Source: Eledone cirrhosa (lineage: Eukaryota). From it: a stretch of DNA of 64,000 nucleotides. Position numbers and translations under genes: made by a program. The stretch spans positions 237,088,001 to 237,152,000 of the forward strand of contig OZ024741.1 in the NCBI GenBank assembly GCA_964016885.1, read 5' to 3'. The first letter of the stretch is position 1. The number at the start of each line of letters is the position of its first letter. Shown piece by piece: positions 50,718-58,591 of this stretch. A model generated the notes under the pieces. It had not been told where the DNA came from. It did no database searches and worked only from the letters and a program-made list of their open reading frames with translations.

Positions 50718-52932
50718 CATCATCATCATCATCAGCGTTTAACGTCCATCTTCCACGCTTGCATGGGTTTGGACGGGAGTTTTCCCACTTGAGGCAAGAT
50801 TTGTTGTCCTGCTCGTATAGGACTGTCTGGCGGGTTTTCTATGGATGGATGCCCTTCCTAACACCAACCACGTTTACAGTGTGGACTGGGAGGTTTTTAC
50901 CGTGTTACCTACACGGCTACATTACAGCGTGGACTGTGTTTTTTTTGTCGTGACACCTACACGACCTCATTTGTTTCGGACTGGATGTTGTGGTACCAAC
51001 ATAACTTCACATTTAAGGGGGTGTATTTTGTTAGAGGTGCCTACTGACTAGGTTTTGTTTTGTACTTAGGCAAGGCGGGTCTTCTGTATGACTGTAGCGC
51101 CAAAGATCTCGGTCCAGTGACATTGTCTTGGAGAGGTGTGTGTGAGGTCGGAATTTATCAAGTCGTCCCAGGTTTTTCTGGGTCTGCCTACTCCGTGGCT
51201 ACCGTCTATTTTTATCGCCCTGCACTTTTTTATACAGCTGTTGTCTTTCATGCGCATCACGTGACCGTACCAACGTAGTCTTCTCTCGAGTAAACAACAT
51301 CTGATCCCTCTTATTCCTAATTTCTCCCTTAGTTCGTTTATGCTTTGCCATTCACGTATATTACTATTACATATCCAGCGGAGCATGCAAGCTTCGTTTC
51401 TCTCTAGTCTGCGTATATCCTCTGCACACAATGCCCAGGTCTCACTGCCATGCAACATTGCTGTTCGTATGCAGGCATCATACAGCCTGCCTTTCATATT
51501 TAGAGAGAACCCTTTAGCAGCCAATAGTGGTATAAGCTCTCTGAACTTTTTCCATCCCGTTCTGACTCTAGCTACTGTACTTTCAGAGCACCCTCCCCCA
51601 TTGCTGATTTTGTCACCCAGGTAACGGAAGGTGTCCACTATTTCTATAGAACCATCTGTGCAATGGAATGAGCTAGTATTCTGTGGGCACTTGCTGCAAC
51701 TTATTGCACCAGAGCACCGGCCACATATAAAATCTATATTCTTAGTTAGCTTACCTGTGATCCCACTACATCTTTTATGACCCATACTTTGCATTTGGGA
51801 CATAAAATGGAGTTTCTGCCTACTCCTTTCCTACACACTGAGCATGGCCATTTCCCAGATGGGACCGGTGCCCTATTTTCCTTCCTACAAACTAGAACTT
51901 TAGTCTTAGACAGGTTAACTTTAAGGCCTTTTGATTCTAGGCCATGCTTCCATGTTTGGAATTTCTTCTCTAGTTCAGCCATTGATTCAGCTATGAGCGT
52001 TAGATCATCTGCATATAGGAGTTCCCATGGGCAGCCGGTCTTGAACTCCTCTGTTATAGCCTGAAGGGCAATAATAAATAGTAGGGGGCTAAGAACGGAG
52101 CCCTGATGAACACCAACTTTTACGCTAAACTCTTCACTATATTCGTTGTTAATTCTAACCTTGCTGACTGTTTCTTTATACACGGCTTGTATAGCTCTCA
52201 CAAGCCATTCATCAACACCTAGTTTTCCAAGCGCCCACCAGATAATGGAGCGGGGGACTCTGTCAAAGGCTTTCTCCAAGTCAACAAAAGCTAAGTATAG
52301 GGGTTTACTTTTAGCTAGGTACTTCTCCTGTAGTTGTCGTACAATGAAAAGAGCGTCTGTGGAACTTTTACCTGACACAAATCCGAACTGCATTTCATCT
52401 AGATCAATTCGTTCTCTGATTAGTTGCGCTATTACTTTTTCTGTGACCTTCATGACCTGGTCGATTAATTTAATGCCTCTATAGTTACCCCTATCAAGAG
52501 CATCTCCTTTACCCTTGTAGCAGTTAATGATGATGCTGCTACGCCAGTCCTTCGGAACGGCCCCATTTCGTATGACTTGGTTTACTATCCGGGTGACCAT
52601 AGTGTGTCCCACCGTTCCAGATGCTTTCAGCATTTCAGCAACTATTTCCGAAGGCCCAGCCGCCTTACCCGTCTTCATATCTTTGATTACCTTACTTATT
52701 ATACTACCTTCAACTAGCACTGCTGGTCCCTCTATTGGATCGATGTGGGGGAGACTGTCTTTCTCCCATTTATTCTCCTCATTTAGTAGCCTTTTGTAGT
52801 GACACTTCCAAGCTACCTTCTTATCAGCGTCAGTGATGGCAAGTACACCATCATCATTAAGGACACACTTCTCTCCAACAATATCACGGTTTTCCTTGAC
52901 ACATTGCCTAGCAATCCTGAACACCTCACGTT
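50718..52932 (-). mobile_element. 5'-truncated RTE LINE (second family): RT, PHD-type finger, 3' UTR, (GAT)n tail
   Basis: NYRGIKL, QFGF, DLEKAFDRV, GVHQGSVLSP, LLYADD, RRLRWYGHV; frameshift at ~51780; CATCATCAT tail at 50718-50733. Confidence 0.95.
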
Positions 52933-52968
52933 TGTGTGTATAATATATATATAAATCTACATACATAC

Positions 52969-53233
52969 ATAATATAAAATCAAAAGATGGTTAAAAGAGT
53001 TCCATGTATTTTATTATGCGCATTTCAAAAACAAATATCATGGGATGATATTTGCGTTCTCATCAGATATGTTGATTTAACACTTCACTGCTTGCAAGTG
53101 TTTTTTAAGCTTCATATCATGTCTCCCTATTTTCTCTGATGAGAACGCAAATATCATCCCATGATATTTGTTTTTGAAATGCGCATAATAAAATACATGG
53201 AACTCTTTTAACCATCTTTTGATTTTATATTAT
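52969..53233. repeat. Perfect 99-bp inverted repeat (52969-53067 / 53135-53233), 67-bp spacer
   Basis: Base-by-base reverse complement checked by eye with no mismatches. Confidence 0.95.
53128..53195 (+). ncRNA. Minimal type-I hammerhead ribozyme (Penelope-like)
   Basis: Stem I TATTTTCT (53128-35) / ATAAAATA (53188-95, one mismatch); CTGATGA 53136-42; stem II GAACGCAAATATCAT-CCC-ATGATATTTGTTTTT; GAAA 53176-79; palindromic stem III ATGCGCAT; predicted AUA cleavage after 53187. Confidence 0.72.
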
Positions 53234-55099
53234 TTATACTCCAGTCATATAAACTGTTGAGTTATCCGATATTTGCATTGCTTTATTGTGCTACAATAAA
53301 ACTCACCGCCTACATTACATACATACATTTACCTATGTATATAGCTATGCATTTATACATTTGTATATATACATGCATTTATATTTAAGTGTGTAAAGAT
53401 GTTGACATGATTTATGGGTTATTTTGGTAAGAAGAAAATGTTGTCTCCAGATGTTATTACCTAGGGAGATTAAATACCACAGCTCTGGCTGAAAGCTGAC
53501 TAGGTTCGCAACCTCATCAAACACGAACGCCGGCCTCTGTGTGTATATATGTGTATGTATGTACGTATGCATGCGTGTGTTGTGTATGATTGTACGTATG
53601 TATATGTATACACCCACACATTTCATCACCATTGCTTCTTTTTCATGTCGTTTCTGTTGTTCTTGTAACTTGTCAAAGTTGAAGTCTTTATTTTCATTTT
53701 CTTTGATTTCTTTCGTTTTTCTTTTATCTCCCTATTGAATTCGTTGACAAGCTACTTTTATTTATTTTTTTCGTTTTCTTCATTCGAATGCATTTACACT
53801 GGCTGTCTCAGAGACATACAAATATGGCTTATAAAACTTACCTAAGTAAATAGCCTTCTGGCGCCCCCTTGAGCTCCCCCCTCCCCGAGAACCTTTGCTG
53901 TAGAGCATCTCACCTAACACTCTAATACTTCCGCCAGTTCATCAACATGGACTGGTACTTTATTTTATCAATATCCCCCAAAAGATAAAAGGTGAAGTTG
54001 ACCTCACCAGGATTTGAACTCAGAAGACAAGGTGCCGGAATAAATAACACCTGGCCCTTGAGTGACTTTAGCAGAGCCCACTTTGTTGCAAGCATTCAGA
54101 CAAGCTCTCTAATTTGAGGATACTTTCTTAACTTAACCCTGTAGCCTCCAAAATCTGAAGGACCATGGATACTGCCCTTCTTTCTGATCAAATGATAAAA
54201 AGAAATTAAGATTTGGTTCTGTGGCTCAGTGTGCCATAAGTAGCAGTCCCGTCCCCCTACAGTCTCAAAAAAGGTCACATTAGACAGTGTTGGTCTTAGA
54301 TACATTAAAAAGACAGGATGGTCACACCTTGAATGCCTTTCATCATAAATCTGCTCAATTTAAGCTAAACTATTTGACAAGAATCAGGCTGAGAGCAGGT
54401 CTTTATACATTTGGGGATTTTTTTTCTGGTTTGTTAGTTTTGGGGTTTTTTTTAACAGGAAAACACTGCGAACAAGTTACACTTTTTTTTACGAACATAT
54501 GATGTGAAAAAACAACATACGACTTATCTAATAGATCTACAAAATCTCCATTCAAAATATATGGTACATTGTAAATGTAGGTAAAATGGAAGTGTGACTT
54601 ATACCCGAATATAGTCATTTCGGGGAAAACATCATTTTTGTTTGTTTGGAATTCAATTCTTAAAGCTTATATACTTCGCTTAATTCCGTTATGAATCGGA
54701 TATTCACGAAGATCTTTCACAATTTTTTTAATGTTTTTTTTTTAATGGTGCAAATACAATTCAAATTATTATCCGAAAATATTTTTGATAAATATTAAAG
54801 TTGCATTTATCTTGAGCGGAAAGAAAAATAAATGGTATCAATTTCAATTATGATTTTGCATGCGTGTGCAGATATACGACCATTAGGAGGGGATGTGTAA
54901 CCGGTGTAGATAGTAAATGTCTTCTTGAAAAATCTAGTGTTTTCCCTGTTTAAGATATTCGACGACTAAAATCAACCATAACCAATATTCTTCATAATTT
55001 AATGCTCTAAATCCTTAAAAAATTACCAGTGGATTATATATAAGGCTATTGGTAGTCAAAATTACATAAAAATCTGTAATATATATAGTTAAATATACA

Positions 55100-56940: not shown

Positions 56941-57427
56941 ACATGACAAATTTCATCCCATTTGCCCTCGATGTTATTTTGGAGCTGGAATTTTACAACT
57001 TTCCATTTCTTCTGTCAAGAAAGCAGTTTTTCACTGTGTCCTTTGTGTAGCTGAAAATCTTGATTGAAACTTGATAATATTTTACATTTCCAATTTCATT
57101 ATATCTTTGTCACTTAGTTTTCATCAATCTGATTATTGTTGGGATATTGTCTTATTAAATGACTCCAAACTGTACTGAACAGGAATCACACAGTGAACCA
57201 CAATTAATGATTTCAGCACTTTTGTCAAAATATTAATCATAAGGTGATGTTTGTCATAAGAAAATTATCATAGGGAGAGATTTGTCTTAAGATTTGGAAA
57301 AAAAAAGGAAAGGTGAAGGAAGAATATAGAAGCTTTCGTTTGAAATAAGAATTTAAAAGTTCTGTATTGTATCAGGTGGAAAACCTAGTAAAATTGATTT
57401 GTTTTGTTGTTGTTTGTGTGAAGAATT

Positions 57428-58270
57428 ATGTATTCGGTGGCATCTGTAGGAAAACAACCCCCATTGAATTATTCTGAAGAAAGTGTTGAAGGTTCTGGCA
57501 CAGTAGTAACGTGTCACATTGAAACAAATTTTGAAACCAATACTAGCAAACCATCTGTCAAGAGAGACAAACCTTTCAAATGTGGAATTTGCCGGAAAGG
57601 ATTCACATTGAAAGCCTATTTGAGTCGGCATCAACTTGCACCAGAGGCTGGCAAACACTTTAACTGTCCATTCTGTTCAAAAGTCTTTCCACAGAGAGAC
57701 CGACTTGACAATCATCAGCGGACCCATACAGGAGAGAGACCTTTCACATGTGATGTTTGCAGTAAGGCCTTCTCTCAGAAATCTCACCTAAACACACACA
57801 AACTTATACACACAGGTGTGAAACCTTATCACTGCAGCTTGTGTCCCCGGGCTTTTTCCCAGAAGGATCATTTGATCAAACACCATCGTACACATACTGG
57901 AGAGAAACCTTTTCACTGCCTTGTCTGCAAGAAGGCTTTCAGCCAACGCACACACCTTAAGAAACATGAGCTGATTCATGCTAATGGTGGCAGTGGTAAA
58001 CGAGGAGGTGGAGGAAATGTTACTCAGTATCAACAACACCATCATCACCACCATCCACATAACCATCAACATCATCACCATCACCACCACCAGCACTCAC
58101 CTATCAATACAGCAAACTCATGTCCTCATCATATGCCAGCCTCGCAACAACAGCAACAACAACAACAGTCACATGTATCTGGATCATGTCCTCATCATAC
58201 ACCACAACAACAGCCACAGCAACCGCAACAACAACAACAACAACAACAACCACAACAACCACAACAGCAG

Positions 58271-58314
<44 letters not shown>

Positions 58315-58591
58315 ACCACAGCAGCTGCAACAACAGACTAGCCAAGCTAACTGTACAATTGCAATGAACAACAGCAATTCATCTCCATCTCCATCACCTC
58401 CAGCTGTAGCAATTCAACTTGGTCCCCGACCAGAGAGTAGTTACTCAGCTTGGAAGAGAAGTCTGCAGCCTGGCACCAACTGGAATGCCTCTACCTGGCC
58501 GTCCAATGCACAGACCCCATCTTATGGGGTTGGCCAAAGTAAATGTGAAAACCAAGAAGCAGTTCATAGTATTCAAACCTTGCTACAGTAG
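57428..58591 (+). CDS. C2H2 zinc-finger protein (4 canonical + 1 degenerate finger) with His-rich and poly-Gln C-terminal region
   Basis: Intact 387-aa ORF; TGERP/TGVKP/TGEKP linkers; first finger lacks its second His; His and Gln/Pro tracts. Confidence 0.92.

What the first reader, a model, noticed from the sequence alone, without database searches (positions are those of the whole stretch)
52969..53330. Perfect 99-bp inverted repeat built on a minimal hammerhead ribozyme
Seen: the right arm completes a type-I hammerhead (stem I 53128-35/53188-95, CUGAUGA, long stem II, GAAA, palindromic AUGCGCAU stem III, AUA site). The left arm is a mismatch-free antisense copy that stops one base beyond CUGAUGA, so it lacks the 5' strand of stem I. 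It lies ~35 bp from the truncation point of an RTE and is flanked by TACA repeats; no Penelope ORF is nearby. Established: palindromic-stem-III minimal hammerheads typify Penelope-like pLTRs and cleave as dimers, and inverted pLTRs are typical insertion products. Inference: a very recent or gene-converted non-autonomous Penelope/retrozyme-like insertion. A read-through transcript would sequester the ribozyme in dsRNA (an ADAR/Dicer substrate), whereas a transcript starting in the spacer could self-cleave, giving a potential built-in switch.
Basis: partly seen in the sequence, partly recalled or inferred. Interest (0 to 1): 0.72.

Follow-up and report, generated by a model that had tools for sequence, protein, structure and literature searches.

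The report
Truncated Penelope insertion with damaged hammerhead
This is one of thousands of back-to-back leftover copies of a Penelope-type jumping gene, likely made when both strands of the cut DNA copied the element's RNA, and its self-cutting RNA motif carries a rare mutation that is predicted to disable it, so it is ordinary transposon debris rather than a switch.

Summary
The 99-bp inverted repeat and the type I hammerhead are real. They are the 3' end of a very abundant Penelope-like retrotransposon of the Hydra clade: a 24-mer of the ribozyme occurs 18,367 times in the genome, and long copies carry an RT plus GIY-YIG-type ORF with Hydra motifs. Head-to-head pairs are this family's normal product: 27 of 29 pairs in one sample and 40 of 41 in another join a tail-less end to an end with an 84-nt tail. 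The 'perfect' arm is unremarkable: 5 of 43 pairs are mismatch-free, close and distant pairs differ equally (no conversion signal), and the arm stops at 99 only because of a rare A>C at 53134. That change is predicted to break stem I and bury the core, whereas sister copies fold as hammerheads. The switch idea is not supported. Copy ends show no peak at the ribozyme cut site. The architecture is in print (Craig 2021, Arkhipova 2013, Cervera 2014), and this scan noted it before in other families of this genome. New here: the family, its counts and a sharp 5'-end hotspot.

The parts
52969..53069 (-). Left arm: antisense, tail-less ('A-ended') copy of the element's 3' end, 5'-truncated inside stem I; core present but only 3 bp of stem I
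53067..53317 (+). Right arm: sense copy from the family's 5'-end hotspot (unit position 1) through the hammerhead and site A to site B
53067..53069 (.). Junction microhomology (ATA) shared by the two arms
53128..53195 (+). Type I hammerhead: stem I 53128-35/53188-95, core 53136-42, stem II 53143-75, GAAA, palindromic stem III 53179-86, predicted cut after 53187
53134..53134 (+). Rare A>C change: breaks the second pair of stem I and creates a competing 5-bp hairpin over the core (predicted)
53234..53317 (+). 84-nt tail between fixed end sites A and B, present on one arm only; carries a 6-nt deletion unique in the genome (after 53261)
52958..52970 (+). Left copy of a 13-nt TACA-repeat direct repeat, likely target-site duplication
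53316..53328 (+). Right copy of the 13-nt direct repeat
51066..52936 (-). Neighbouring 5'-truncated RTE-type LINE; unrelated neighbour sharing a TA-rich tract, not split by the insertion

Best explanation
The feature is a doubly 5'-truncated, head-to-head insertion of the 3' end of a high-copy Hydra-clade Penelope-like retrotransposon, likely formed when the element's enzyme nicked both strands of a TA-rich target and primed two copies from two fixed internal start points on its RNA, and its hammerhead is predicted to be inactive because of a later point mutation. Shown: family membership, copy number, ORF-bearing relatives, two fixed 3' ends (A and B, 84 nt apart), one of each per inverted pair, 3-nt microhomology at the junction, flanking 13-nt direct repeat. 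Inferred: two-strand target-primed reverse transcription; one cDNA ran to the usual 5' stop (unit position 1, probably an RNA 5' end), the other stopped at position 67, and they were joined by microhomology. In intact elements the ribozyme would work as a dimer through the AUGCGCAU palindrome; this copy has one sense ribozyme with a broken stem I.
For: 18,367 exact hits of the ribozyme 24-mer, 0 for the reversed control. Among the first 100 hits, 29 neighbours within 6 kb are head-to-head, 1 tail-to-tail, 4 tandem. 27 of 29 pairs are A+B; 40 of 41 partners found among 60 tailed copies are A-ended (p 8e-7 and 2e-11 against 50:50). Either arm can be the longer (B longer 8, A longer 18, equal 8 of 34). 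L051 and L104 carry pLTR then ORF with RW(I), DKT, YRDD, CxCx5C (L051 also CxxC, CxH), the Hydra diagnostics of PMC8557442, and resemble the Hydra-1_Obim protein by eye. Tandem period 3,334 bp. An anole Penelope protein nicks and extends both strands and starts at two internal sites that bracket the tail (PMC11167929). Folding: inner stem I probability 0.68-0.97 in three sister copies versus 0.0 here, C3, G8, A9 paired here (78-nt fragments). All 8 common stem variants keep pairing, core invariant at the 5% level.
Against: The integration mechanism is read from footprints, not shown for this enzyme; in the anole assay neither strand preferred a start site, so the strict A+B rule is unexplained. 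2 of 29 pairs (L100 A+A with duplicated flanks; L084 B+B, arms 86% alike) and 1 of 41 (L164) break the rule, and 19 of 60 tailed copies had no partner within 3.5 kb. Folding is prediction only; with longer flanks sister copies also lose stem I (0.05-0.4), and the anole ribozyme needed protein to cut. No two-sided covariation, and the shuffle control is uninformative. No RT tree was built; Pfam did not recognise the Hydra RT or endonuclease. No read or contig bridges the whole locus.
Confidence: 0.85

Rival explanations
1. Same element, but the inversion arose by fold-back self-priming (one cDNA or an antisense template turns back at a palindrome and copies itself), the model of Arkhipova 2013, with the endonuclease trimming one end to remove the tail.
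For: Many junctions sit at or near the CATATG palindrome at unit position 1, some as near-symmetric hairpins; PMC3846280 argues for self-priming from junction palindromes; PMC8557442 ascribes the tail to endonuclease resolution. It explains one tail per insertion simply.
Against: A fold-back from a B-primed first strand predicts that the B arm is never the shorter; the A arm is longer in 18 of 34 pairs. Position-1 ends often pair with a partner ending elsewhere, as here. Later deletions could blur this test.
Confidence: 0.2
2. The locus is a functional RNA switch: read-through RNA makes a dsRNA hairpin, RNA starting in the spacer self-cleaves.
For: Read-through fold does sequester the ribozyme. 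The right arm begins at the family's 5'-end hotspot (17 of 101 ends within 5 nt, 1.8 expected), which may be a transcription start. A C2H2 zinc-finger ORF lies 4 kb downstream on the same strand.
Against: Stem I is broken and the core predicted to be trapped in this copy; one sense ribozyme only, and single Penelope minimal hammerheads showed no cleavage in vitro (PMC4209133); arms drift like other copies; about 5,000 loci would share the layout (extrapolated).
Confidence: 0.04
3. A non-autonomous retrozyme monomer amplified through a circular RNA.
For: Type I hammerhead in a short non-coding unit; true 310-bp hammerhead arrays exist in this genome (L033); retrozymes are proposed Penelope derivatives (bioRxiv 10.64898/2026.07.22.740005).
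Against: No tandem monomers; upstream of the unit, longer copies run on into the 3' UTR and ORF of the autonomous element, and downstream into its 5' UTR; 5' ends vary from position -2387 to +147.
Confidence: 0.03
4. The inversion is an assembly or library fold-back artefact.
For: No laid contig or read bridges the locus; one sampled pair (L100) does look like a fold-back duplication with shared flanks.
Against: The two arms have different outer flanks, end at the family's two different fixed sites and are framed by a 13-nt direct repeat; the arms are not identical at 53068/53134; a contig with the private variant has single-copy depth 18-20 in two runs of one sample (may be the assembled individual).
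Confidence: 0.02

Closest known systems
Hydra clade of Penelope-like elements, incl. Hydra-1_Obim and Penelope-13_HM (Craig et al. 2021, PMC8557442; abstract, sections 11 and 12, passages and supplement tables read)
   Same: C-terminal endonuclease, RW/DKT/CxCx5C/CxxC/CxH motifs, type I hammerhead near the 3' end, (TA)n targets, inverted 5'-truncated copy, tail at one end only.
   Different: Different family: its hammerhead sequence is unlike that listed for Hydra-1_Obim, unit about 3.3 kb (listed Hydra are mostly under 3 kb), tail 84 nt rather than 30-40, RWI for RWK, stem II of 15 pairs, over 18,000 ribozyme copies.
Poseidon element of Anolis carolinensis, PAc (Frangieh et al. 2024, PMC11167929; main text parts 1-2 of 4 read)
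   Same: Two internal reverse-transcription start sites bracketing the tail, AT-rich targets, no sign that ribozyme-cut RNA is the template.
   Different: Other clade; start sites lie inside the ORF there, in the non-coding pLTR/5' UTR here; no strand preference in vitro, strict one-A-one-B pattern here.
Minimal Penelope hammerheads (Cervera and de la Pena 2014, PMC4209133; part 1 of 4 and passages read)
   Same: Type I, long stem II, unstable palindromic stem III, dimer-dependent, pairs on opposite strands 100-700 bp apart, mostly truncated copies.
   Different: Stem III palindrome here is 8 nt and starts AU; stem I 8 bp; activity untested.
Adineta vaga Penelope elements (Arkhipova et al. 2013, PMC3846280; passages read)
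   Same: Head-to-head inverted pLTRs, tail on one of them, short TSDs, palindromes and microhomology at junctions.
   Different: Low copy number there, so no statistics on end pairing; self-priming model proposed.

Membership tests
Penelope-like element, Hydra clade | Single ORF, RT followed by C-terminal GIY-YIG-type endonuclease | tested here: met
   L051 ORF 1605-4016 (one in-frame stop), RT YRDD at residue 362, endonuclease-like region with YFGS at 697; read by motif, no Pfam hit. Absent from the window copy, which is truncated.
Penelope-like element, Hydra clade | RWK and DKT motifs; CxCx5C linker; CxxC and CxH in the endonuclease | tested here: met
   RWI 42, DKT 128, CNCPVRTKC 663, CNLC 763, CLH 791 in L051; first three also in L104; definitions. 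RWK is varied to RWI.
Penelope-like element, Hydra clade | Canonical hammerhead near the 3' end | tested here: met
   125 of 146 sampled copies keep CUGANGA and GAAA..UH (part of the sample was picked on the stem III motif).
Penelope-like element, Hydra clade | Insertion into (TA)n | tested here: met
   Most of 31 B ends and 15 A ends listed run into TA repeats; likewise the 30 loci.
Penelope-like element, Hydra clade | Partial tandems (pLTR), inverted 5'-truncated copy, tail on one end | tested here: met
   Tandem period 3,334 bp with inverted tailed copy in L104; 27 of 29 and 40 of 41 pairs A+B.
Penelope-like element, Hydra clade | RT groups with Hydra in a phylogeny | not tested
Naiad (N-terminal endonuclease) | Endonuclease N-terminal to RT, no canonical hammerhead | tested here: not met
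   Endonuclease motifs lie C-terminal; hammerhead present.
Type I hammerhead ribozyme | Core CUGANGA, GAAA, UH with three helices | tested here: met
   Family: 98.8% of cells paired, 8 one-sided wobble changes, no two-sided change. Rfam models did not hit.
Type I hammerhead ribozyme | Stem I closed next to the core in this copy | tested here: not met
   C.U mismatch at pair 2; predicted probability 0.0 for the two inner pairs.
Type I hammerhead ribozyme | Self-cleavage | not testable with these tools
   Needs an assay; no genomic peak of 5' ends at the cut site.
Non-LTR retrozyme | Tandem non-coding monomers, each with a hammerhead, no continuity with an ORF | tested here: not met
   No tandem array at the locus; relatives continue into the ORF.

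The most novel reading that the evidence does not exclude
This family gives a genome-scale readout of Penelope integration: every insertion is primed on both target strands from two duplicated RNA start signals (similar short hairpins just 3' of sites A and B), one enzyme of a dimer per site, on uncleaved RNA whose 5' end lies at unit position 1; the ribozyme is kept by selection yet does not define the template ends. Thousands of the resulting hairpin loci would be a large dsRNA source in a cephalopod-type genome.
Probability: 0.3. Interest if true: 0.55.

Novelty: new member of a known kind. Interest (0 to 1): 0.2.

Why it matters
The locus itself matters little: it is a decayed copy among thousands. 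The family is a useful natural dataset for two open questions stated in the literature: how Penelope elements form inverted, one-tailed insertions, and what their hammerheads do. Here the one-A-one-B rule, the free choice of which arm is longer, the 5'-end hotspot and the absence of a peak at the cut site give testable predictions for an in vitro system like the anole one. The same footprint was already noted by this scan in other families of this genome, so the added value is confirmation with counts.

Tried and rejected
Rfam: no hammerhead hit at gathering score (whole window) or E<=10 (52500-54000); the miRNA-family hits reflect the hairpin and TA repeats and are far below threshold. My first guess of Naiad, recalled from memory, was dropped after reading the clade definitions. 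Gene conversion: arm-arm mismatch 2.9% in 39 compact pairs, 3.0% in 23 distant pairs; rare variants shared by both arms 0.18% versus 0.13%: rejected. Cut-site footprint: patterns breaking at the cut, one base later and one base earlier gave 175, 112 and 83 hits, of which 11, 16 and 12 of 30 inspected lacked upstream homology (some are internal deletions), about 64, 60 and 33 genome-wide: no peak. Insertion splitting the RTE: no upstream RTE sequence right of the element within the window or 9.9 kb beyond. One search mixed A ends with another subfamily's read-through and was not used. Twin start signals after A and B: alignment beaten by 19 to 151 of 2000 shuffles in 4 of 7 copies tested, windows chosen by eye, hairpins only -2 to -7 kcal/mol: suggestive only. 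Expression: no RNA holder listed. Reads: no piece bridges the locus; the RAD-seq run laid 3 reads. Protein search gave 41 unnamed relatives at 26-41% identity, no names. Literature searches found no paper on this family or on strict A+B counts; subscription journals are not covered, and Lunse et al. 2017 on dimeric cleavage is recalled, not seen.

Full report
Observation. The arms 52969-53067 and 53135-53233 are exact reverse complements over 99 nt around a 67-nt spacer. The right arm completes a type I hammerhead as described: stem I 53128-35 with 53188-95, CUGAUGA, a long stem II, GAAA, AUGCGCAU and an AUA site with the cut after 53187. It is the only match of my descriptor in the window; the minus-strand copy keeps just 3 bp of stem I. 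Rfam did not detect it. The neighbouring RTE ORF (RVT_1) ends at about 52936 and does not resume on the other side.

It is a very common repeat. A search of the own genome (3.0 Gb) with the locus gave 1,761 candidates, 40 scored, the listed best places at 83-94% identity. A 24-mer over stem III and stem I has 18,367 exact matches and the reversed control none. Upstream of the unit, longer copies continue into a 3' UTR and an ORF; downstream, some read on into a 5' UTR and the ORF start. L104 holds a tandem with a 3,334-bp period plus an inverted tailed copy. The ORF in L051 has RWI, DKT, YRDD, CxCx5C, CxxC and CxH in the order given for the Hydra clade, and looks like the printed Hydra-1_Obim protein, though its ribozyme differs from the one listed for that family. 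No tree was built. That the host is an octopus-like cephalopod is my inference from this likeness, genome size and zinc-finger arrays.

The inverted layout is the family's normal product. Copies end at two fixed points, A (window 53233) and B (53315-17), each usually joined to (TA)n. Of the first 100 listed 24-mer hits, 29 neighbouring pairs within 6 kb are head-to-head, 1 tail-to-tail and 4 tandem; 5 of the 29 have motif distances under 200 bp, like the window's 167. 27 of these 29 have one A and one B end; the exceptions are L100 (A+A with duplicated flanks) and L084 (B+B, arms 86% alike). In a second sample, the first 60 hits of a motif that reads through A, 41 had a real inverted partner within 3.5 kb, 40 of them A-ended; 11 had none and 8 rows were matches to (TA)n that I dropped. 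Two loci occur in both samples and L144/L145 are neighbours. Scaling 29 pairs per 100 hits gives roughly 5,000 pairs, from one chromosome end only. Tail-on-one-arm inverted pLTRs are in print (PMC8557442; PMC3846280), as are opposite-strand hammerhead pairs 100-700 bp apart (PMC4209133).

How it likely formed. The anole Penelope protein nicks and extends both strands of AT-rich DNA and starts reverse transcription at two internal sites that bracket the tail (PMC11167929). Applied here (inference): one strand primed at B and ran to unit position 1; the other primed at A and stopped at position 67; the two were joined through the shared ATA at 53067-69. A 13-nt direct repeat on both sides (52958-70, 53316-28) fits staggered nicks. 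Either arm can be the longer (B 8, A 18, equal 8 of 34), which favours two priming events over a fold-back from B. Position 1 is a sharp stop: 17 of 101 arm ends lie within 5 nt of it, against 1.8 expected, often with a partner ending elsewhere; an RNA 5' end is the likeliest cause, a palindrome the rival. The stretches 3' of A and of B resemble each other and can form similar small hairpins, but the test was post hoc and weak (lead from e1-10307541).

The perfect arm is not special. Of 29 aligned copies only the window has C at 53134; the rest have A. With A the arms pair on to 53069/53133, so the true arm is 101 nt with one mismatch. The C variant occurs in 4 places genome-wide, and the 6-nt tail deletion in one, against 1,364 hits for a subfamily motif. 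The copy has therefore aged. Across 62 other pairs, arms differ by 2.9% when close and 3.0% when distant, rare variants are arm-specific at about the rate seen in tails, and 5 of 43 pairs with at least 80 shared sites are mismatch-free. There is no sign of conversion.

The ribozyme. At family level the fold looks maintained: of 128 full-length copies, ten positions vary at 5% or more; eight are in stems and all keep pairing (A-U/G.U, C-G/U.G), one is N7, one is in loop II, none is a conserved core base or in the palindrome. There is no two-sided covariation, and most of the changes are A/G, so editing of the RNA stem could contribute. Sister copies fold stem I with probability 0.68-0.97 as 78-nt fragments, and the one sister co-folded with itself pairs through the palindrome; the window copy gives 0.0 for the inner pairs and traps C3, G8 and A9 in a 5-bp hairpin created by C53134. 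With longer flanks sisters also weaken (0.05-0.4), so these are predictions. A single minimal Penelope hammerhead showed no cleavage in vitro (PMC4209133). Copies truncated at the cut site are no commoner than one base later (about 64 versus 60; 33 one base earlier), matching the anole result that uncleaved RNA is the main template.

Verdict on the switch. A read-through RNA would form the hairpin and bury the ribozyme, but the 'on' state is missing: one sense ribozyme, broken stem I, no cis partner. Expression could not be judged: no RNA holder was listed. Contigs did not bridge the locus, so an artefact is excluded only by architecture: different outer flanks, A and B ends, direct repeat.

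Novelty. New family member of a known clade. Six literature searches found no description of this family; unsearched journals and Repbase may hold it. This scan has reported the same twin-arm footprint in other families of this genome, none by sequence for this unit. Interest 0.2.

Noticed in passing
L033:4200-6450 (G000:C28): 310-bp tandem unit with a different type I hammerhead, four copies on + and four on -, a retrozyme-like inverted array; similar arrays were noted earlier in this scan.
   Followed up: no
L069, L050, L039, L044, L041, L070, L045, L037, L043, L049, L003, L052, L095: 16 other hammerhead sequences of roughly seven families turned up in the fetched loci, several as opposite-strand pairs: this genome is dense in Penelope-type ribozymes.
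   Followed up: no
L118:1743-3673 (6-8 kb left of the window start), L033:418-2103, L051:4319-6048, L052:1185-2297: Other Hydra-like ORFs; L118 is about 52% identical to the family's protein.
   Followed up: no
L100: Inverted pair whose arms share their outer flanks, a fold-back duplication or assembly artefact rather than an insertion.
   Followed up: partly
window:4759-6720 and 57422-58591: C2H2 zinc-finger ORFs on +; whether the insertion lies in an intron of the second gene was not determined.
   Followed up: partly
window:53227-53281: The unique 6-nt deletion removes the GCUA that follows the small hairpin after site A, part of the possible start signal.
   Followed up: partly
family stem I and II (alignment A2): Six of the eight common stem variants are A/G on the ribozyme strand, the direction expected from A-to-I editing of the RNA stem before copying; untested.
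   Followed up: no
window:55878-56432: Three diverged copies of a short SINE-like repeat, with a related inverted copy near 53951-54025.
   Followed up: no
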